From the NCBI RefSeq assembly GCF_057098645.1, contig NZ_CM169472.1: a stretch of 64,000 bases of DNA. One strand, given 5' to 3'. The position numbers and the translations under genes are program-made. Of the stretch, positions 44,558 through 52,816 are shown in pieces; the first letter of the stretch is position 1; each line of letters starts with the position of its first letter. The notes beneath the pieces are model-generated. The model did not search any database. It saw nothing but the letters and a program-made list of their open reading frames with translations, and was not told the DNA's origin.

Positions 44558-44632
44558 ATGACGTTGTCTCCTTATTTGCAAGAGGTGGCGAAGCGCCGCA
44601 CTTTTGCCATTATTTCTCACCCCAATAATTAA
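44558..44632 (+). pseudogene. prfC: 5' remnant of peptide chain release factor 3 gene, truncated by prophage insertion
   Basis: ATG 44558 gives [22 protein letters not shown] then NN-stop; the expected continuation DAGKTT (GTPase P-loop) is missing and AT-rich phage DNA follows. Confidence 0.75.
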
Positions 44633-44779
44633 GCCCAAATTAAAGCTCTTTTACTCTTTCAAAGTCCTTTCAGTTAATTGAGTGTTAATCATATAACTCA
44701 TTTAATAACATGATGTTATGTGGTTTCTTTAATTGAAAATTCTTTCATGTAACTTTAAATCGATCAGGTTGCTTTCATC

Positions 44780-44852
44780 AAAAATCTGTACATGTGCTTG
44801 TACATAATGTACAAAACAGCAGAGGTGGTTTTTTATTTGTACAAGGTGAGTA
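44780..44852. repeat. TGTACA-containing repeats upstream of int (candidate arm-type or operator-like sites)
   Basis: tgtacatgtgcttgtacataatgtacaaaac … tttgtacaagg: four TGTACA motifs within about 60 bp. Confidence 0.35.
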
Positions 44853-46091
44853 ATGGCGCTGTCTGATGCGTGGTTGCGTTCAGTCGTTGGAAAGGAACGT
44901 GATAAGGTTTTGGTTAAATCCGATCGTGATGGTCTGTCTGTCAGAGTATCACCGAAAGGTCGCGTAGTGTTCCAATATCGTTATCAATGGGCAGGGAAAG
45001 GTGAGCGCCTTGATATCGGAACTTACCCGGCAACTGGATTAAAAGAGGCCAGAGAAGAAGTTATCCGTCTCCGTGGTGAACTCGAGTCAAACCGCAATCC
45101 ACGATTAGTCAAGCAGGCTGAAAAACGAAAAGCTACTGAAGCTATGACGGTAGAGTCTGTGATCCGTGCCTGGTATGAAGCATATTGTGTAAAAAATAAA
45201 AAAGGTTCTGAACAGATACTCCGCTCGTTTGAGCTGCACCTGTTCTCTAAAATCGGGAATATCCCTCACGATGCAGCTACATTGCATGATTGGTTAGAAG
45301 TCCTGGAGCCTCTTAGCACTAAGACTCCAGCAATAGCAGACCGATTGCTAATTAACGCAAAGCAGGCCCATGTCTGGGCGTATAAGAGAAAGCTCATTGA
45401 AACTCGCCCGCTGTCGGATATCACGGGTAAAGATATGGATATCCGTAAAGGTCAGAAGAAACGGTTTCTGACACATGATGAAATTAAAATCCTTTATGCT
45501 GCGATCGATGGTTCTCGAATGGTTCCCAAATACCGGGCCTTCATTAAACTATTGCTGCATTTCGGCTGTCGTAGTTCAGAGCTGATTACTGCCAGGGTGG
45601 ATGATTTTGATTTCATTAATAAGGTATGGACTGTACCGCCAGAACGACATAAGACAGGTGATATAACAGGCGAACCGCTAAAGCGCCCCATTATTGAACC
45701 GGTTGAAGAGCTTATAAAATACGTTATCTCTATGAACAACGGTTCCGATATGCTTTTTACCAAGGAAGGAAGCAAGGAGCCAGTTGGTCGGACATCATTG
45801 CAGTCGCTGCCTTACAATTTAATGCAGTACGCATGGCGGCGTTTGGGGTATCAATTTCCTCATTGGTCTCTTCATGATTTGAGACGAACAGCACGAACAA
45901 ACTTTTCTGATCTTACTGCGCCTCATATTGCTGAAATAATGCTCGGTCATAAACTGCCAGGGGTATGGCAAGTTTATGATAAGAGCGATTATCTAGAAGA
46001 ACAGCGTAAAGCCTATCAGGCATGGTGGGATAGGGTTGATTCGATTCTTACTTACACTAATTTAGGTTCCAACAGACAGCCTATTGAATAA
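44853..46091 (+). CDS. int: Phage tyrosine integrase (P4-type family)
   Basis: 412-aa ORF with catalytic-domain motifs (…HFGCRSSELITARVDDF…, …HDLRRTARTNFSDL…, …GHKLPGVWQVYDKSDYLEEQRK…); first gene inside the junction. Confidence 0.9.
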   Translation: MALSDAWLRSVVGKERDKVLVKSDRDGLSVRVSPKGRVVFQYRYQWAGKGERLDIGTYPATGLKEAREEVIRLRGELESNRNPRLVKQAEKRKATEAMTVESVIRAWYEAYCVKNKKGSEQILRSFELHLFSKIGNIPHDAATLHDWLEVLEPLSTKTPAIADRLLINAKQAHVWAYKRKLIETRPLSDITGKDMDIRKGQKKRFLTHDEIKILYAAIDGSRMVPKYRAFIKLLLHFGCRSSELITARVDDFDFINKVWTVPPERHKTGDITGEPLKRPIIEPVEELIKYVISMNNGSDMLFTKEGSKEPVGRTSLQSLPYNLMQYAWRRLGYQFPHWSLHDLRRTARTNFSDLTAPHIAEIMLGHKLPGVWQVYDKSDYLEEQRKAYQAWWDRVDSILTYTNLGSNRQPIE

Positions 46092-46243: not shown

Positions 46244-47851
46244 TTATGGCTGAGACTCTGGTTTAGCAATCTCGTTTATAAATTTCTTAGCTACAACAGT
46301 CTCATACTTTCTATAATCATCAAGATATTGAACATCTATATGATTTTCGTAGCGAGCATTAAATTTATTTGCAGCCCCTGTTTTATCATCTTTACGTTCA
46401 TCCGTTGGTCTGAAAAATTTATGGTAGCGGCGGGGTGATACCCCCTCAAAATCACAAAATATTACTTTGGAAGATTCTTCGTTCTTTGTTATTGCATCAT
46501 TATGCAGATCAAGAGCAAGACTTTTATCAAATGGCTCTATATATACTACTTTTTTTATTCCAGCTGCGACAATATGCCTTGCACAGTTGTGGCAGGGATA
46601 GGTTGTCGTAAAAAGAATTTTATCTTTAGTATCGCCGTTTTGTTTTCTAGCCATTGATGTAATGACGTCCATTTCAGCATGAATTGATCTGGAGTACTCC
46701 ATTACACTTGATATTTTGCTGTCTTTGTAAATGCCTTCTGCAATATTATCTAATTTGTTTAGAAGTCGTGTTATATTAATATCGGCAACAGTTTGTCCTG
46801 CGGAAATACCTAATACAGTTCTTACTTCGGTTGATAATATGCTTTTTATACGGTCTTTAATTTTTAGCTTGTTTGCATCATTATAACACTTACCACTTTT
46901 GTGAACGCATCGATGATCGTTATCAAAATCATCACTGCTATACAACCCGCCACCAGCTTTAGGTACGTCGTTCTTACCCACGGCAAGCAAATTCCCTTCA
47001 TCATCAAACAGTGCAGCCCCTACTTGACGTGATAAACAAGCTGATTGTAATGATGTTGAAAAGGCAGCATACATACCTTTCTCGTTAAAAGTTGGTGTTA
47101 AACCATTTTTGCCATGAATAAGACCGAAAAACCGATCAATCTTCTTCTTTAATTCACTTTTTTGGCTGAAGTTATTTTTAATAAAAAAATCTGAATCAAG
47201 AATGGTTTCCCCGGTTCTTTGTCCATACGGATCAGAGGATTTATTATCAATATTGATAATTAAATGAAGGTCGTTCTTTGTCGATTCGTCATCAATGAGA
47301 TTCTGAATTCGGTAATCTAAATCGCGCAAAACTCCTAACAAATAGAAATTATGCTGATATATAACTCTGAATAACTCTATTTCTTCCGGCCTTTTGAATT
47401 GATCAATGATGAAGACAGTACCTTTATATTCATCATTATTATAATCATTATTATAATCAATATTATTTTTCTCTGCTGCGATTGCTGCAATAGCAGCTTC
47501 TGCAAGCAACTCATTTTTTTTGTAATGTTTACGAAGTTTATTGGCAATATCCTGGAGTTTTAAATGTCTATTAGCTTGTGTGCTTTCGGATACCTTCAGT
47601 GCTGCTGGCTCAAAATATAATGGGTTTTCCATAAGCGCACTTATGCGGATGTGTACAACATTATACCCCCATTCTTTGGATATCTCTTCGATAATTTTGT
47701 TTATCGTTCTCATGCCACATCCAACATATCCACACAATCCAAGATAAATATCTTTTGATTGTCGTGAATTCACAATCTCAAGTGATGATGCCGATGTTGA
47801 GCCTTTTTTTTCATTCAGCTTTTGTGGAGTTTTTTTTGCTGCTTCAGCCAT
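46244..47851 (-). CDS. Fusion protein: N-terminal degenerate P-loop kinase-like domain + C-terminal zinc-dependent deoxycytidylate/cytidine deaminase domain; candidate antiphage nucleotide-depletion enzyme
   Basis: 535-aa ORF. C-terminal half has the CDA-fold motifs …RQVGAALFDDEGNLLAVGKNDVP…, …SIHAEMDVITSMA… and …TYPCHNCARHIVAAGIKKVVYIEPF… (H-A-E / P-C-x-x-C). N-terminal half has a glycine-rich loop DIYLGLCGYVGCGMRT and a hydrophobic strand followed by Asp (TVFIIDQF). AT-rich; lies between int and xis. Confidence 0.6.
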   Translation of the reverse strand: MAEAAKKTPQKLNEKKGSTSASSLEIVNSRQSKDIYLGLCGYVGCGMRTINKIIEEISKEWGYNVVHIRISALMENPLYFEPAALKVSESTQANRHLKLQDIANKLRKHYKKNELLAEAAIAAIAAEKNNIDYNNDYNNDEYKGTVFIIDQFKRPEEIELFRVIYQHNFYLLGVLRDLDYRIQNLIDDESTKNDLHLIINIDNKSSDPYGQRTGETILDSDFFIKNNFSQKSELKKKIDRFFGLIHGKNGLTPTFNEKGMYAAFSTSLQSACLSRQVGAALFDDEGNLLAVGKNDVPKAGGGLYSSDDFDNDHRCVHKSGKCYNDANKLKIKDRIKSILSTEVRTVLGISAGQTVADINITRLLNKLDNIAEGIYKDSKISSVMEYSRSIHAEMDVITSMARKQNGDTKDKILFTTTYPCHNCARHIVAAGIKKVVYIEPFDKSLALDLHNDAITKNEESSKVIFCDFEGVSPRRYHKFFRPTDERKDDKTGAANKFNARYENHIDVQYLDDYRKYETVVAKKFINEIAKPESQP

Positions 47852-47861
47852 TGCTAATTAC

Positions 47862-48047
47862 CTAGTCGAAAACTATATCAGTATTTATTATTTCAAAAAA
47901 TGCATCAAGAATTTCTTTATTTTTCTTTTTACTTTCAAATGAAATGACATTATCTTGATTAAATGTTGTTAATTCAATGCAGATAGAATCAACCTGATCA
48001 TTGGCGGCGATGCTCGATTCTATTTCATTAAATGCTATTACATTCAT
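47862..48047 (-). CDS. Small acidic hypothetical protein co-oriented with and 10 nt upstream of the deaminase gene
   Basis: 61-aa ORF MNVIAFNEIESSIAANDQVDSICIELTTFNQDNVISFESKKKNKEILDAFFEIINTDIVFD with ATG start; same AT-rich composition as the downstream gene; weak Shine-Dalgarno. Confidence 0.35.
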   Translation of the reverse strand: MNVIAFNEIESSIAANDQVDSICIELTTFNQDNVISFESKKKNKEILDAFFEIINTDIVFD

Positions 48048-48391
48048 TTATCTTATCCAAACATAATAAAAAACCATATGGCCTTTAGTGTACAACAAAA
48101 CCATACTCTTTCCCCTCATTTTAGAGGGGGAAGTGTGGTCCACATCATGTTTTTTCCCACCCATGAAAATGTTCACCTAGGCTGGTGATGCATTTTATGT
48201 ACATCAACTCTTTGAGTTGAATCATTATTTTAGTATTTTTTCTATCATTGTGTAAATGTCTTCGTTTCAATACATCATGCTTGGGGAGCGGTCCCCGTTT
48301 CCTGATAATTAATGCTTGTGGATAGCAACGTCCGTGCCTGTATCGCTCAGACAGACGCTTACCGTGCCATAGACGTGTCTGTTCACATACG

Positions 48392-48586
48392 TCATTCAAT
48401 AACTCCTGCAAACCTGTAAATCTTGCGTGAAGCCCATTTATTTGGGCATGATTTAATATCAGGATCTGGAAAATCAGGCCTGTACTTCTGGCCAGTTCTC
48501 CGGTTTACGCTGTTCCAGCGAAGAACTGTCGATACTGAAACGCCACAGAAGTCGGCGACTTGTTTAGTTGTCATTAAGTTGTTCAT
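48392..48586 (-). CDS. xis: Excisionase / AlpA-family DNA-binding protein
   Basis: 64-aa ORF MNNLMTTKQVADFCGVSVSTVLRWNSVNRRTGQKYRPDFPDP… (winged-helix excisionase signature). Confidence 0.7.
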   Translation of the reverse strand: MNNLMTTKQVADFCGVSVSTVLRWNSVNRRTGQKYRPDFPDPDIKSCPNKWASRKIYRFAGVIE

Positions 48587-49206
48587 TACTTCACCTCCTG
48601 CGGCGGTTCCGGTAGCGGCATCCAGTGGGTTACTTTCGATGCCGGTTCTTCTCCATTGTCAGTAACTGCCCACCATTTGTTTCTCGAACAATCATAATAC
48701 CCTTCGAAGGTATCGCACTCAGTCCAGCCGTAAGACTTACCCCGACACCAAACATACTGTTTATCGTTCGGCATTCGCTCACTACAGCTTATCCAACCAT
48801 CCGGAGTTACCGGAGAGTTGCCCGACAGCTTGTTCAACTTGTAAGTCTGGCTTACAGGTTTGGCACCATGAAGCATGGTGGCGCGGCAGGCGTTCCAGCC
48901 TTCATCAAAACCGACTATGCCATTATTTAAAGACGGACGAGCATCTGGCACCACCAGTACTGGCTTGGCTATATATAGCGGCTGAACATACCAGCCCTTT
49001 GATAACCAACTGTCAGCAATGTTTTTGCTCCTGGTTATTGCCGGAATACCTAAGCCATTGTCTGAATGCAGCCATGCCACCGGCTCCTCTTCCAGCGATG
49101 CCAGAGCAATTTCATAAGCACGGCGCTCAATATCGTCTCGAACCTCTAGGCTGCTGATTCGTTCTTTGATTTCTTTAATCAGTTCTTTATTGGTAAATGT
49201 GGTCAT
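48586..49206 (-). CDS. Prophage early protein (DUF551 / YfdT-like)
   Basis: 206-aa ORF, Cys/Trp-rich C-terminal half (…WISCSERMPNDKQYVWCRGKSYGWTECDTFEGYYDCSRNKWW…); stop/start overlap with neighbours. Confidence 0.5.
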   Translation of the reverse strand: MTTFTNKELIKEIKERISSLEVRDDIERRAYEIALASLEEEPVAWLHSDNGLGIPAITRSKNIADSWLSKGWYVQPLYIAKPVLVVPDARPSLNNGIVGFDEGWNACRATMLHGAKPVSQTYKLNKLSGNSPVTPDGWISCSERMPNDKQYVWCRGKSYGWTECDTFEGYYDCSRNKWWAVTDNGEEPASKVTHWMPLPEPPQEVK

Positions 49207-49568
49207 TATGCTCCAGCCTCCGGCGCTTTGGGTATTACTGCCCAGTGAGTGATATTGAAGTTTTCAAGGTCCCCGACCTGAAATGTCCACTGCCATTCTC
49301 CGGTTTCTTTTTGTCCCCAGGTGTACCAGAGAGAACGCCAGCCAATCAGCCAGCCTTCTCCGTTAGCATCAAATAACAGAACACTTTCATTTGCTGGTGG
49401 CAGTTCAGCTGACACTGGTATTATTTTGTTTTCCAGTGCCGCACATTTAGCTTCAAGCGCGTCGAATTTACGTACCAGGTACTCAGCATTTGTTTCGTTC
49501 ACTTTCAGATCTCGCGGTACACATTTCCCGCGAAGAAACCCTTCCATTTCGAAAACATTCATGCGCAT
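49206..49568 (-). CDS. Prophage early protein (YfdS-like)
   Basis: 120-aa ORF in an overlapping operon arrangement. Confidence 0.5.
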   Translation of the reverse strand: MRMNVFEMEGFLRGKCVPRDLKVNETNAEYLVRKFDALEAKCAALENKIIPVSAELPPANESVLLFDANGEGWLIGWRSLWYTWGQKETGEWQWTFQVGDLENFNITHWAVIPKAPEAGA

Positions 49569-50095
49569 TTGCGTAACTCCGATAATTCGTTAAAGCGTTC
49601 CATAAACATCCCGTAGGCATGGCCTGGAGCCAGTGGAATCACGTTGATCATCTCTGTTGCCGGGATACCTTCCAGCACAGGCCAGAAAGAGCCATCATCA
49701 AGCCCGAGATCGCGGCGTTCGGTTGCCAGCATGATGAGATCGGCATATTTCACGGGTGTACTCATAACCGGGGGTAACCCGTATTTCTCACGGATTACGG
49801 CGTCTATTTTTTCTTCCATCCGTTTATAGTCAGGAAGAAGGCGTTTCAGTGGAGCCGGGATGTCCTGGCAATACGCTTCTGTTGCATCATGCATTAACGC
49901 TTCAAAAGCAAATTCCTGCGGTACCAGTTTGCTGCAAAGCACCGCATGTTGGGCGACGCTGTAGAAGTGTGAAAGATGACCGGCAAAGCGACAGATATTT
50001 GAAAGGGAAACTGCGATATCGTTAATCACGATGTCGTCTTTATTTATCCTGTCATAATAAAAATGCTTCCCGGAAAAAGTTTTAATAAATGACAT
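49559..50095 (-). CDS. HD-domain phosphohydrolase, YfbR/YfdR-like 5'-deoxynucleotidase
   Basis: ORF 49559..50122; from MSFIKT… 178 aa; HD motif context (…NICRFAGHLSHFYSVAQHAVLCS…, …HDATEAYCQDIP…). Confidence 0.7.
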   Translation of the reverse strand: MSFIKTFSGKHFYYDRINKDDIVINDIAVSLSNICRFAGHLSHFYSVAQHAVLCSKLVPQEFAFEALMHDATEAYCQDIPAPLKRLLPDYKRMEEKIDAVIREKYGLPPVMSTPVKYADLIMLATERRDLGLDDGSFWPVLEGIPATEMINVIPLAPGHAYGMFMERFNELSELRKCA

Positions 50096-50222
50096 TTTGT
50101 TCTCCACGTATATGCGCTGCACCGCGCTGAATTTTGGTTAAAGAAAACCCTCGCCATCAGGCGATTATTGAGTCAATTATGTTTCCATAAATGCCCCCGC
50201 AGGGGCATTTGCAGTAAGGAAA

Positions 50223-51047
50223 TCAGGCGGTAAAAGTACCAATAAAGGTTTCTACTTTGCTGTCTTTGAGTTTCTCAACAAGCAGATCACGAAATTCGTT
50301 AGCCATTTCTTCCTGCACTGCTTCCAGCTGAATAATGCGCAGAACCAGTACAGGACGATCGCCAGTGATAATGCTGAGGCGTAATTTAAACGGACGTTCT
50401 TGCAGGCCTTCAAACGGAACGCATTTAAATTCAAATGCCACTGGCATAATGTCTTTGGTCTTCGCTTCGACAGATTCCATCAGGGAGCGTTTGCCGCTGA
50501 AGTCATTATCTTCAAAATCAGCGGTCTGGTTTGCTTCAATCGTGATTTTACGGACTGCCGCAGCCGCTTTTGTTGCCTGAATGGCGTCACCATTAGCATC
50601 AAAGCCCACAAGGTAGTCGGCCCAGTCTTCAATCCATTCTGCCAGTGACTTCTGGGAGTTACGCTCGCCGTTAACAGACAACAGGGCAGAGAACGGTGCT
50701 GTCTTTTTCAGTTTGAGAGTGGCGGTGTTATCTGCGTGACCTGGTTCATCAATAGTACCCAGGTTAAGCACACTGACGGCACGCATATTATCAGCATCGA
50801 TAAAGCAGCGGGTGCCTTCATCTGCAAGATCTTTAGAATAACGGGTAAAATCATCGATGCTGGCAGTGGAAAGCGCGCCACGGAAACGGAAGCGATTTAA
50901 ATTAAATTTTTCCAGATCATGAATGCGGAAATTCTCAGGCAATGCCACAGCATCGGCACCAATCTTACTGATAATTTCATTAACACCCTGAGCAGAAATA
51001 AGGGCATGGATTTGATTAATTGCGGTTGCGTCTAAGTTCTGAGACAT
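50223..51047 (-). CDS. Prophage protein, YfdQ-like (DUF2303)
   Basis: 274-aa [51 protein letters not shown]…; length and position match the CPS-53 yfdQ-type gene. Confidence 0.55.
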
Positions 51048-51112: not shown

Positions 51113-51475
51113 TTAATGACCTGCTGCGCGTAGTTTTCCGTCAGGTTCACCGGCAAGAGTCAGTAATTGTCCCTGGTCTTCCTGCAGAATAGTCAGGCGA
51201 CCACCGCGATTGACATACATCGGCGTTTCGGTGGTGTCTTCTTCGGAAATTTTCCCGCGGTTAGTCGGGCGAACATATGAGAGTTTGTGTTTGATTTTCA
51301 CACGGTTCTCATCAAATGGTTCGATTTCCAGGTTGAGTGAGACCTTACCTTTGGTTTTCGTGTTCATCACACCGGAAGCGACTTCACTGAGAACTGCGCC
51401 GATTTTGGTTTCAAATACGCCGCCGTCCAGCTCCCCGATAAATGCCTGCACATCAGTACTGCGTTCGCTAGCCAT
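51113..51475 (-). CDS. Prophage protein, YfdP-like; first gene of the early-left operon
   Basis: Likely start at ATG (MASERSTDVQAFIGELDGGVF…) preceded by AGGAG; the ORF-track start at 51706 is a TTG and the intervening translation looks non-coding. Confidence 0.5.
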   Translation of the reverse strand: MASERSTDVQAFIGELDGGVFETKIGAVLSEVASGVMNTKTKGKVSLNLEIEPFDENRVKIKHKLSYVRPTNRGKISEEDTTETPMYVNRGGRLTILQEDQGQLLTLAGEPDGKLRAAGH

Positions 51476-52075
51476 TTTGCTGCTCCTCATCATATCGACC
51501 CTGCAAGGTCGGTTGGTTTCTCCACAAAACAGAGAAGAACACCTGCGGTGGCAGCCGCCCGGATGGATTGGGTTATGAGCCCGTCGTCCGGTGATGCTCT
51601 TCTCTGTTTTGTAAAAAGAGCGGTACCAGCCGGAAGCAAGTGTACAAACTGGTACCGCCAAAGCAGTGGCTGTTGTGGTGGGCTTGTCACTCAGGCGTAT
51701 GGTCAACCTGACAATCCGGTGTCCTCAACGGGGAAAGAGTAACCCCGCCATACTTACCGCCGCGCCATTTCGCGGATTACCACAACGCTGAGAGCACTTA
51801 GCCAGTTACAGCACCACACTTTGTCGCGGCTCCATAAATGCCCTCATCGTTGCACCCTGGTCTCTTCCCAGGCGTCAAACCGAATCGCCACGCTGGTTAG
51901 GCGTCTTATCAGCATCATCATTGACTTGCACATTCCGGCTACCTGGTTTGTTTGCCCGAGCAAGGAGTGGATTGTCCCCTTTAACGTCCCCAGACCGCTA
52001 ACGACGCATGTGCCATACGCCGTGTTACAACCAAATTTTGTTTAATCTTGCCTGTGCTGTGTTTCTTTTAGATAC

Positions 52076-52104
52076 ATTATGTATCCCAAGGGTACATTGT
52101 CAAG
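52076..52104 (-). promoter_or_regulatory. Candidate pL-type early-left promoter with overlapping operator
   Basis: On the minus strand TTGACA (52099..52104), 17-nt spacer, ATAATG (52076..52081); the spacer contains a GTACC…GGaTAC operator-like half-site pair. Confidence 0.45.
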
Positions 52105-52141: not shown

Positions 52142-52816
52142 TTAGGCCTTTATTATGTATCTTCTTGGTTTTCCTGAGAAAATCACTGTACCAATTATAG
52201 AGCAATTACCGTTGATCTTAATGTAAGGTTCAGGCCAGTTTGGGTTTAATGCTTTGAGGTAACGCTGTGTTCCATCTTCTATCAACCGCTTGAAGGTGGT
52301 TTCGCCTGTATCGTGCATCAATGCAATAACGTCGTCACCGTGGCAGGCAGGGACTTCAGGATCAACAAAAATCATGTCTCCCGGGCGGTACTCATCAATC
52401 ATTGAATCACCAATCACCCGCAAGATATAAGTCATTTCGCCACAGGGTACAGGGCAGGGGTAAGTTTCTGCTGTGCTCAAATCAACCTCAGAATAGCCAA
52501 CTTCTTTCCATGCTCCGGCCTGTACCCATGATATGACAGGGACTAACGTTATTTGTTTGTTAGTGATTGAAACATCAGGTTTTTTTGTGATGTTCGTGGT
52601 CTGGTGTTCTTGATCAAGCCATCCGACAGGCAGGTCGAAACATTTTTCGATGTGCCGCGCCATGCTGTCACCGATATTTTTAGTAGCACCATCTCCCATA
52701 AACCTGCTGGTCTGGGTTGGCTCGCGATCAATCATGGTGGCAAAGGAAGAATTCCCGCCAACACCATCTCTCAGTTTTCTGGCGTTAGACCGCCGGATGT
52801 CATGGACTGTTTTCAT
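52142..52816 (-). CDS. cI: Prophage repressor, cI-like (N-terminal DNA-binding domain + C-terminal S24 LexA-type peptidase)
   Basis: 224-aa ORF; C-terminal …LRVIGDSMIDEYRPGDMIFVDPEVPACHGDDVIALMHDTGETTFKRL… with Ser and Lys catalytic dyad context. Confidence 0.8.
   Translation of the reverse strand: MKTVHDIRRSNARKLRDGVGGNSSFATMIDREPTQTSRFMGDGATKNIGDSMARHIEKCFDLPVGWLDQEHQTTNITKKPDVSITNKQITLVPVISWVQAGAWKEVGYSEVDLSTAETYPCPVPCGEMTYILRVIGDSMIDEYRPGDMIFVDPEVPACHGDDVIALMHDTGETTFKRLIEDGTQRYLKALNPNWPEPYIKINGNCSIIGTVIFSGKPRRYIIKA

What the first reader, a model, noticed from the sequence alone, without database searches (positions are those of the whole stretch)
49559..50095. HD-domain 5'-deoxynucleotidase-like gene in the prophage early-left operon
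Seen in sequence: a 178-aa YfbR/YfdR-like HD-domain ORF sits among YfdP/Q/S-like genes. Established knowledge: YfbR-type enzymes dephosphorylate dNMPs. Inference: a phage-encoded dNMP phosphatase could remodel nucleotide pools early in induction, which is notable next to a host-protective deaminase candidate that also acts on nucleotide pools.
Basis: partly seen in the sequence, partly recalled or inferred. Interest (0 to 1): 0.4.

Follow-up and report, generated by a model that had tools for sequence, protein, structure and literature searches.

The report
Known prophage gene yfdR (HD hydrolase)
The flagged ORF is yfdR, a common and already studied E. coli prophage gene for a small HD-type phosphohydrolase that has weak nucleotidase activity and binds the host replication initiator DnaA, so the finding is real but ordinary.

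Summary
The ORF exists exactly as described, on the minus strand (49559-50095, 178 aa). It is yfdR: 174 of 178 residues match E. coli K-12 CPS-53 YfdR, RefSeq names it yfdR, and it occurs in 2970 of 5426 complete E. coli genomes. It lies in the order yfdP-yfdQ-yfdR-yfdS, downstream of a repressor-controlled leftward promoter, in an apparently intact ~43 kb lambdoid prophage at prfC.

It is an HD-fold protein. The metal ligands H50, H69-D70 and D119 and the YfbR-type residues R36, E73 and D78 are conserved across the family, and dN/dS against K-12 is 0.04. It is only a remote relative of YfbR and falls below the Pfam and NCBIfam cut-offs. Its nearest solved structure is Atu1052, of unknown function.

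Published work on the K-12 orthologue reports low-affinity nucleotidase activity. It also shows direct binding to DnaA domain I and inhibition of oriC initiation together with yfdQ and yfdS or yfdT.

The nucleotide-pool idea is plausible but leaves out the DnaA binding. The proposed link to the neighbouring anti-phage dCTP deaminase is not supported: the deaminase is a low-GC insert found in 48 genomes and near 1 of 80 related viral loci. Novelty: already known. Interest: low.

The parts
49559..50095 (-). yfdR: 178-aa HD-fold phosphohydrolase, the gene in the finding
50096..50222 (-). 127-nt yfdQ-yfdR spacer with two conserved hairpins; the second (50164-50151) is followed by GGGUUUUCUUU and looks like a terminator or attenuator
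   Evidence: Terminator-like site. Folding z-score -3.17. Compensatory changes in both stems across K-12, other prophages and phage Flotzy. A sub-threshold STnc100 match at 22 bits against a cut-off of 47.
50223..51047 (-). yfdQ (DUF2303), the usual upstream partner of yfdR
   Evidence: PF10065 at E 8.7e-93. 99% identical to K-12 YfdQ. Directly upstream of yfdR in 64 of 77 viral loci.
51113..51475 (-). yfdP, the first gene of the leftward operon
   Evidence: RefSeq annotation. PHROG 204. No Pfam hit.
49206..49568 (-). yfdS-like gene; its start overlaps the end of yfdR by 10 nt
   Evidence: 98% identical to the K-12 gene downstream of yfdR. Weak DUF551 hit. Directly downstream of yfdR in 52 of 80 viral loci.
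48586..49206 (-). 206-aa DUF551 protein whose first 42 aa match K-12 YfdT
   Evidence: PF04448 at E 3.8e-18. 40/42 identical to the YfdT N-terminus.
52076..52103 (-). pL-like promoter (TTGACA-16-CATAAT) with an operator palindrome at 52080-52096 in its spacer
   Evidence: 11 of 12 match to the promoter consensus. The operator pattern TGTAY-N6-GGTACA occurs at only 3 sites in the 64 kb window, against 0.03 expected.
52142..52816 (-). CI-type repressor (LexA-like, S24 peptidase) that presumably controls the operon
   Evidence: PF00717 at E 1.5e-26. RefSeq 'LexA family protein'. Operator copies at 52834-52850 and 52884-52900 lie between it and the cro-like gene.

Best explanation
The ORF is yfdR, the HD-fold phosphohydrolase of CPS-53/SfV/mEp460-type lambdoid phages. 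Here it sits in its native setting, the CI-repressed leftward early operon (pL - leader - yfdP - yfdQ - yfdR - yfdS - DUF551 gene - xis) of an apparently intact prophage.

Shown here:
- It is the yfdR gene.
- Its metal-binding and catalytic residues are intact.
- The protein is under strong purifying selection.
- The operon is repressor-controlled.

Inferred by 98% orthology to the published K-12 protein: after induction YfdR does two things.
1. It binds DnaA domain I at the Phe46 patch and competes with DiaA and DnaB. Together with YfdQ and YfdS or YfdT it damps initiation at the host oriC, plausibly freeing replication resources for the phage.
2. It acts as a metal-dependent, low-affinity 5'-(deoxy)nucleotidase.

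Which activity matters for phage fitness is unknown. My inference is that catalysis is the ancestral, family-wide function and DnaA binding is an enterobacterial addition.
For: Identity:
- 174/178 aa identical to K-12 YfdR.
- RefSeq names it yfdR.
- Present in 2970 of 5426 E. coli genomes and in phages mEp460, SfII, SfIV and Stx2c phages at 97-98% identity.

Active site and selection:
- H50 is invariant, and H69, D70, E73, D78, D119 and R36 are at least 90% conserved in 73 homologues of 38-67% identity.
- The HDATEAYCQDIPAPLK segment aligns with YfbR's HDASEVLTGDLPTPVK.
- The model is confident, with pLDDT 97.5.
- dN/dS is 0.04.

Operon control:
- An 11/12 promoter sits just after the cI terminator.
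- The operator palindrome is shared with the cI/cro region: 3 sites against 0.03 expected.
- The prophage has lysis, head and tail genes.

Published function (PMC4776307):
- Purified YfdR binds DnaA domains I-II, and the binding depends on Phe46.
- It moderately inhibits DiaA-DnaA and DnaB-DnaA binding.
- Multicopy yfdQRS or yfdQRT inhibits initiation in vivo, and YfdQRST-overproducing extracts inhibit it in vitro.
- A 2025 eLife paper restates this role.

The cited paper also reports that YfdR has nucleotidase activity with much lower affinity than YfbR.
Against: - The DnaA effects were seen only on overexpression. Deleting yfdQRST had no initiation phenotype, and the authors concede a possible artefact.
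- YfdR alone was not sufficient in vivo.
- yfdR occurs without yfdP and yfdQ in SfII-type loci and without yfdS in 28 of 80 loci. The four-gene module is therefore not obligatory.
- Homologues occur in phages of Bacillus, Caulobacter, Burkholderia and others, often beside nucleotide or replication enzymes. This points to catalysis rather than DnaA binding as the conserved role.
- No experiment has been done on this allele or in a phage life cycle.
- Zimmerman 2008 could not be read here.
Confidence: 0.65

Rival explanations
1. YfdR acts mainly as a dNMP phosphatase that remodels nucleotide pools early in induction, for example by feeding a deoxynucleoside salvage route to dTMP or by disposing of dNMPs. 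It would work in functional concert with the neighbouring dCTP deaminase.
For: - All HD and YfbR-type catalytic residues are conserved.
- PHROG and RefSeq name it a dNMP phosphatase / 5'-deoxynucleotidase.
- Distant family members sit between thymidylate synthase, DHFR and thymidine kinase in Bacillus phage Sophrita, and between DNA ligase and DNA polymerase in a Burkholderia phage.
- Phage T5 encodes a non-homologous dNMP phosphatase, Dmp, as a pre-early gene. This is a functional precedent.
Against: - YfdR's nucleotide affinities are reported to be much lower than YfbR's, with its function described as 'elusive'.
- Deleting yfdR did not change CMP yield in an engineered strain.
- The coupling to the deaminase is not supported. 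The deaminase is in 48 genomes and yfdR in 2970. The deaminase is within 4 kb of yfdR in 1 of 80 viral loci.
- The deaminase block is 35% GC and tied to one integrase and attachment site.
- YfdR has no PADLOC hit.
Confidence: 0.3
2. YfdR is a catalytically active HD hydrolase whose physiological substrate is not a canonical dNMP. Candidates are a dNTP (as for cyanophage DatZ or OxsA), or a damaged, modified or signalling nucleotide. The weak dNMP activity would then be a side reaction.
For: - There is a weak match to the PHROG 'dATP triphosphohydrolase' family, E 1.4e-4.
- The only close solved structure, Atu1052, has no assigned function.
- Low affinity for the nucleotides tested has been reported.
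Against: - There is no direct evidence for any alternative substrate.
- The residues YfbR uses for dNMP binding have equivalents here (R36, F37 and D78, by alignment, interpreted from my memory of the YfbR structure paper).
Confidence: 0.15
3. The gene is a decaying remnant carried along with the prophage and has no current function.
For: The K-12 copy lies in a cryptic prophage, and its deletion has no initiation phenotype.
Against: - dN/dS is 0.04 at dS 0.24.
- The ORF is full length in 2947 genomes and in plaque-forming phages.
- This prophage looks intact.
- The active site is conserved across thousands of clusters.
Confidence: 0.02

Closest known systems
E. coli K-12 YfdR (b2361, CPS-53/KpLE1 cryptic prophage)
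   Same: Same length of 178 aa with 174 identical residues. The same yfdP-yfdQ-yfdR-yfdS order and the same 127-nt yfdQ-yfdR spacer and 10-nt overlap with yfdS. By orthology it shares the published DnaA domain I binding and weak nucleotidase activity (PMC4776307).
   Different: There are four conservative substitutions: R16K, K56Q, I150F and E169D. In K-12 the repressor and pL region is deleted and the prophage is defective. Here the operon sits behind an operator-bearing promoter in an apparently complete prophage. K-12 yfdT (101 aa) is replaced by a 206-aa DUF551 protein that shares only its first 42 residues.
Atu1052 of Agrobacterium tumefaciens (PDB 2GZ4), structural-genomics protein of unknown function
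   Different: Only 26% identical. It is a chromosomal protein of an alpha-proteobacterium, and no function or partner is known.
E. coli YfbR 5'-deoxynucleotidase (PDB 2PAQ; PF12917, NF003009)
   Different: Sequence similarity is limited to about 40 residues. Scores fall below the family cut-offs: 19.5 against 122 bits and 24.2 against 25.9 bits. Foldseek TM is only 0.44. Nucleotide affinity is reported as much lower. YfbR is a housekeeping enzyme, whereas YfdR is phage-borne and binds DnaA.
Phage T5 Dmp (deoxynucleoside-5'-monophosphatase, pre-early gene)
   Same: It is a phage-encoded early enzyme annotated as degrading dNMPs to deoxynucleosides.
   Different: It is not homologous. hhalign probability is 0.1%, and Dmp has no Pfam HD hit.
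Other inhibitors that bind DnaA domain I or hijack initiation (DiaA competition, B. subtilis SirA, Dps, lambda P)
   Same: According to PMC4776307, YfdR uses the same DnaA Phe46 surface as DiaA and DnaB, as SirA uses Phe49 in B. subtilis. Lambda P is a precedent for a phage protein that inhibits DnaA.
   Different: These proteins have unrelated folds. None is an HD enzyme, and lambda P targets DnaA domain III.

Membership tests
YfdR orthologue group (CPS-53-type prophage YfdR) | Near-identical full-length sequence to K-12 YfdR | tested here: met
   174/178 identical with no gaps. RefSeq names it yfdR.
YfdR orthologue group (CPS-53-type prophage YfdR) | Synteny yfdP-yfdQ-yfdR-yfdS in a lambdoid left arm | tested here: met
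   YfdQ is directly upstream in 64 of 77 related viral loci.
YfdR orthologue group (CPS-53-type prophage YfdR) | Binds DnaA domain I in a Phe46-dependent way | not testable with these tools
   Known only from experiments on the K-12 protein (PMC4776307).
HD-domain metal-dependent phosphohydrolase superfamily | H...HD...D metal-ligand motif | tested here: met
   H50, H69-D70 and D119 are present. They are invariant or at least 90% conserved in 73 homologues and align to the same residues of Atu1052.
HD-domain metal-dependent phosphohydrolase superfamily | All-helical HD fold | tested here: met
HD-domain metal-dependent phosphohydrolase superfamily | Score above the curated cut-off of a Pfam HD-clan model | tested here: not met
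   PF12917 scores 24.2 against 25.9 and PF13023 17.3 against 22.5. PF01966 gives no hit. 68 of 73 family members hit PF12917 at E <= 0.01.
YfbR 5'-deoxynucleotidase family (NCBIfam NF003009 equivalog) | Score at or above the equivalog cut-off | tested here: not met
   19.5 bits against 122. phmmer against the PDB does not find YfbR. BLASTP gives a 40-aa local match only.
YfbR 5'-deoxynucleotidase family (NCBIfam NF003009 equivalog) | Equivalents of YfbR's catalytic and substrate residues (E72, D77, R18-W19; roles recalled from the YfbR structure paper, not re-read) | tested here: met
   E73 and D78 align with them. R36-F37 corresponds to the R-W pair, with W replaced by F; Atu1052 has R-W.
YfbR 5'-deoxynucleotidase family (NCBIfam NF003009 equivalog) | Strict, high-affinity dNMP phosphatase activity | not testable with these tools
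   Affinities are reported as much lower than YfbR's. The primary paper is not held.
DatZ/OxsA-type small HD dNTP hydrolases | Closer structural or sequence similarity to these than to monophosphatases | tested here: inconclusive
Phage T5 Dmp family | Detectable homology | tested here: not met
   hhalign probability 0.1%.
Known anti-phage defence systems (PADLOC) | Match to a defence-protein model | tested here: not met
   No hit for YfdR, YfdP, YfdQ, YfdS or the DUF551 protein. Only the neighbouring deaminase hits, to the dCTPase model at E 1.9e-164.

The most novel reading that the evidence does not exclude
YfdR may be a true two-function phage early protein. It would be an active HD nucleotide hydrolase whose catalytic state or product is coupled to its binding of DnaA domain I. 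This would link host replication shut-down to nucleotide supply during lytic growth. Its dosage relative to yfdQ would be set by the conserved structured spacer (terminator or attenuator) between the two genes. The intact, repressor-controlled operon found here would be the natural system in which to test this. My data do not exclude it.
Probability: 0.1. Interest if true: 0.45.

Novelty: already known. Interest (0 to 1): 0.1.

Why it matters
It matters little as a discovery. The gene is annotated in thousands of genomes, and its product has been studied biochemically and genetically. Three modest points are useful:
- The 'ancestral propagative' form of the yfdPQRS operon, which Noguchi & Katayama thought might be extinct, is common. 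It is present here behind an intact repressor/operator switch, so the DnaA-inhibition hypothesis can be tested in a live phage.
- Strict Pfam and NCBIfam thresholds miss this large phage HD family, whose nearest solved structure has no assigned function.
- The proximity to the dCTP-deaminase defence gene should not be read as a functional pairing.

Tried and rejected
1. Homology to phage T5 Dmp. I suspected it because a Rhizobium phage hit lay next to an 'A1 protein'. It is rejected: hhalign probability is 0.1% and Dmp has no Pfam domain.
2. Membership of a defence system. YfdR and its operon partners have no PADLOC hit.
3. Functional pairing with the dCTP deaminase. It is rejected on distribution (48 against 2970 genomes, and 1 of 80 viral loci), on GC content, and on linkage to one integrase and attachment site.
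4. Reading Zimmerman et al. 2008 for YfdR kinetics. The paper is not held, so I relied on second-hand statements.
5. Rfam scan of the operon. It gave only a sub-threshold STnc100 match over the yfdQ-yfdR spacer, at 22 bits against 47. I do not claim it as a family member.
6. The search for related loci on viral contigs, meant to sample distant contexts. It returned almost only near-identical enterobacterial loci. It served for co-occurrence counts, not for family-wide context, which I took from individual phage records instead.
7. Co-folding YfdR with DnaA domain I as a linker fusion. I considered it and confirmed the DnaA sequence against 2E0G. I did not run it, because the tool returns no inter-residue confidence or contacts, so no interface could have been evaluated.
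8. The longer GTG start at 50122. It is rejected in favour of the ATG at 50095 (Shine-Dalgarno sequence, RefSeq call, homologue N-termini).

Full report
**1. Observation**

On the minus strand an ORF runs from the ATG at 50095 to a stop ending at 49559 and encodes 178 aa. GGAGAA lies 6 nt upstream of the ATG. Its last 10 nt overlap the start of the next gene (49206-49568). The window is 100% identical over this gene to the E. coli WWCOL-256 chromosome (NZ_CP178548.1), where RefSeq annotates it as 'yfdR: 5'-deoxynucleotidase'.

**2. Identity**

- The protein is 174/178 identical to YfdR of the K-12 cryptic prophage CPS-53. YfdQ is 99% identical and the YfdS-type protein 98%.
- The gene is present in 2970 of 5426 complete E. 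coli genomes at 90-99% nucleotide identity.
- It is also present at 97-98% protein identity in phages mEp460, SfII, SfIV and Stx2c-converting phages.
- Against the K-12 allele there are 28 nucleotide but only 4 amino-acid differences. dS is 0.24, dN is 0.0096 and dN/dS is 0.04, so the protein is under strong purifying selection.

**3. What kind of protein it is**

Curated thresholds are not reached. PF12917 (YfbR-like) scores 24.2 against 25.9, PF13023 scores 17.3 against 22.5, and the YfbR equivalog NF003009 scores 19.5 against 122.

Deeper evidence nevertheless establishes an HD fold:
- PHROG 318 ('deoxyribonucleoside 5' monophosphate phosphatase') matches at E 9e-109.
- An exhaustive search finds 22,697 clusters at 50% identity with E <= 1e-3, and 15,267 with E <= 1e-10.
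- In an alignment of 73 homologues (38-67% identical), H50 is invariant. H69, D70, E73, D78, D119 and R36 are at least 90% conserved.
- A profile of that alignment hits Atu1052 (PDB 2GZ4) at E 1e-30, Lin2634 at 1e-5 and YfbR at 6e-5.
- The AlphaFold model is very confident, with pLDDT 97.5 and pTM 0.92.
- Foldseek gives TM 0.81 to Atu1052 but only 0.44 to YfbR.
- Direct BLASTP against YfbR finds only a 40-residue match, HDATEAYCQDIPAPLK against HDASEVLTGDLPTPVK. I confirmed the YfbR sequence against 2PAQ.

YfdR is therefore an HD phosphohydrolase with an intact active site. It is a remote relative of YfbR, not a member of that family. The nearest solved structure has no assigned function.

**4. 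Context in the window**

The gene order on the minus strand is:
- cI-type repressor (S24 peptidase, 52142-52816) and its terminator
- a promoter, TTGACA-16-CATAAT (52103-52076, 11 of 12 match)
- a leader of about 600 nt with few ORFs
- yfdP, yfdQ, then a 127-nt spacer
- yfdR, yfdS, a DUF551 gene and xis

The 17-bp palindrome TGTAY-N6-GGTACA occurs at only three sites in the 64 kb window, against 0.03 expected. One site is inside the spacer of that promoter (52080-52096). The other two lie between cI and the cro-like gene (52834-52850 and 52884-52900).

The host record shows Q antiterminator, lysis, terminase, portal, capsid, tail and tail-fibre genes, ending at prfC. This is an apparently intact prophage of about 43 kb, and the window holds its left 19 kb. 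In K-12, by contrast, the repressor and pL region is missing.

**5. What is known about YfdR**

Noguchi & Katayama 2016 (PMC4776307) isolated yfdQRST as a multicopy suppressor of over-initiation in hda-185. They reported that:
- yfdQ plus yfdR plus either yfdS or yfdT is needed for the effect.
- Of the four proteins, only YfdR binds DnaA.
- Binding maps to DnaA domains I-II and depends on Phe46.
- YfdQRST-overproducing extracts inhibit oriC replication in vitro.
- Deleting the genes has no phenotype, and an overexpression artefact is not excluded.

Citing Zimmerman et al. 2008, which I could not read, they state that YfdR is a structural homologue of YfbR with much lower nucleotide affinities and that its function 'remains elusive'. 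A metabolic-engineering paper cites the same source for activity on CMP and found no effect of deleting yfdR. A 2025 eLife paper treats YfdR as a prophage-encoded inhibitor that competes with DnaB for DnaA domain I.

**6. Family-wide context**

- In phage Flotzy (67% identity) the same CI ... yfdP-like, yfdQ-like, HD gene ... exonuclease, integrase layout is kept.
- Among 80 related viral contigs, YfdQ is directly upstream in 64 of 77 informative loci. A YfdS-type gene is directly downstream in 52 of 80.
- In SfII-type loci yfdR follows the pL leader directly, without yfdP or yfdQ. Other loci carry PAPS-reductase or unrelated genes downstream.
- More distant homologues occur in other settings:
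  - a Mu-like Klebsiella phage;
  - a Burkholderia phage, between DNA ligase and DNA polymerase;
  - a Caulobacter phage, near a DHH phosphoesterase and RNase H;
  - Bacillus phage Sophrita, between thymidylate synthase, DHFR and thymidine kinase, next to Pol III alpha.
- Predicted viral structures with TM 0.8-0.9 are numerous.

This pattern, together with the conserved active site, argues that catalysis on nucleotides is the ancestral, selected function of the family. DnaA binding may be a lineage-specific addition. That last step is my inference.

**7. The deaminase link**

The 535-aa protein at 46244-47851 is an anti-phage dCTP deaminase. It scores 464.7 bits on NF041025 against a cut-off of 400, and E 1.9e-164 on the PADLOC dCTPase model.
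- It is found in only 48 of 5426 genomes.
- In the three other loci inspected it sits next to a similarly placed tyrosine integrase at the same yjjG/prfC site.
- It lies in a 35% GC block, against 45-50% GC for its neighbours.
- It is within 4 kb of yfdR in 1 of 80 viral loci.

It is an insert in the integrase-proximal slot of one prophage lineage. Nothing suggests a functional partnership with yfdR.

**8. Explanation and rivals**

Best explanation (confidence 0.65). This is yfdR in its native, repressor-controlled early-left operon. By orthology it binds DnaA domain I and, with YfdQ and YfdS or YfdT, damps host initiation after induction. It also retains a low-affinity nucleotidase activity.

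Rivals:
- Nucleotide-pool remodelling as the main role (0.3). The deaminase partnership within that idea is essentially excluded.
- An HD hydrolase with a different true substrate, such as a dNTP as for DatZ and OxsA (0.15).
- A functionless remnant (0.02), which the selection data contradict.

**9. Verdict**

Novelty: already known. Interest: low (0.1).

Noticed in passing
window 46244-48391 (minus strand): Anti-phage dCTP deaminase gene at 46244-47851: NF041025 scores 464.7 bits against a cut-off of 400, and PADLOC dCTPase E 1.9e-164. A 540-nt AT-rich upstream stretch follows, holding only a 61-aa ORF (47862-48047) and a promoter-like site (48256-48227). The whole block is 35% GC. It occurs in 48 of 5426 E. 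coli genomes; in the three other loci inspected it lies next to the integrase at the yjjG/prfC site. From my memory of AvcID-type systems, the upstream stretch might encode a regulatory or antitoxin RNA. I did not test this.
   Followed up: partly
window 50096-50222 (minus strand): The yfdQ-yfdR spacer holds two hairpins, AAAUGCCCC-UGC-GGGGGCAUUU and UCGCC-UGAU-GGCGA, the second followed by GGGUUUUCUUU. Folding z-score is -3.17. Both stems show compensatory changes across K-12, other prophages and phage Flotzy. There is a sub-threshold Rfam STnc100 match (22 bits against 47). It may be an internal terminator, attenuator or processing site of the pL operon.
   Followed up: partly
window 52080-52096, 52834-52850, 52884-52900: Three copies of a 17-bp palindrome, TGTAY-N6-GGTACA, are the only ones in the window (0.03 expected). 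One lies in the spacer of the pL-like promoter and two between the cI and cro-like genes. They are probably the operators of this phage's repressor.
   Followed up: yes
window 51476-52075 (minus strand); loci L013, L030, L063, L065, L070: A leader of about 600 nt without a convincing ORF lies between the pL-like promoter and yfdP. In SfII-type phage loci yfdR follows this leader directly, with yfdP and yfdQ absent. No Rfam family matches the leader.
   Followed up: partly
window 48586-49206 (minus strand): A 206-aa DUF551 protein has 40 of its first 42 residues identical to K-12 YfdT (101 aa), after which the two diverge. K-12 yfdT therefore looks like a recombinant or truncated version of a longer DUF551 gene.
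   Followed up: partly
window 53151-56070 (plus strand): The rightward early region has a CII-like protein (Phage_CP76), an Ash-family protein and one candidate replication protein (54761-55579; HTH_36 plus a weak DnaD_N hit). No recognisable helicase loader or helicase was seen. This is of interest because YfdR is reported to interfere with DnaA-DnaB contact.
   Followed up: no
window ~44558-46091 and host flank: The prophage is integrated at the 5' end of prfC, and a 69-bp duplicated fragment is annotated next to int. The host gene about 0.6 kb outside the attachment site is yjjG, a pyrimidine 5'-nucleotidase. I take this to be a coincidence with the yfdR annotation.
   Followed up: no
proteins P0121, P0127, P0129, P0139, P0146, P0157, P0182, P0201: Some family members of about 350-410 aa match the query in two separate stretches. 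They may be tandem-duplicated YfdR-type HD proteins or gene-fusion calls. I did not examine them.
   Followed up: no
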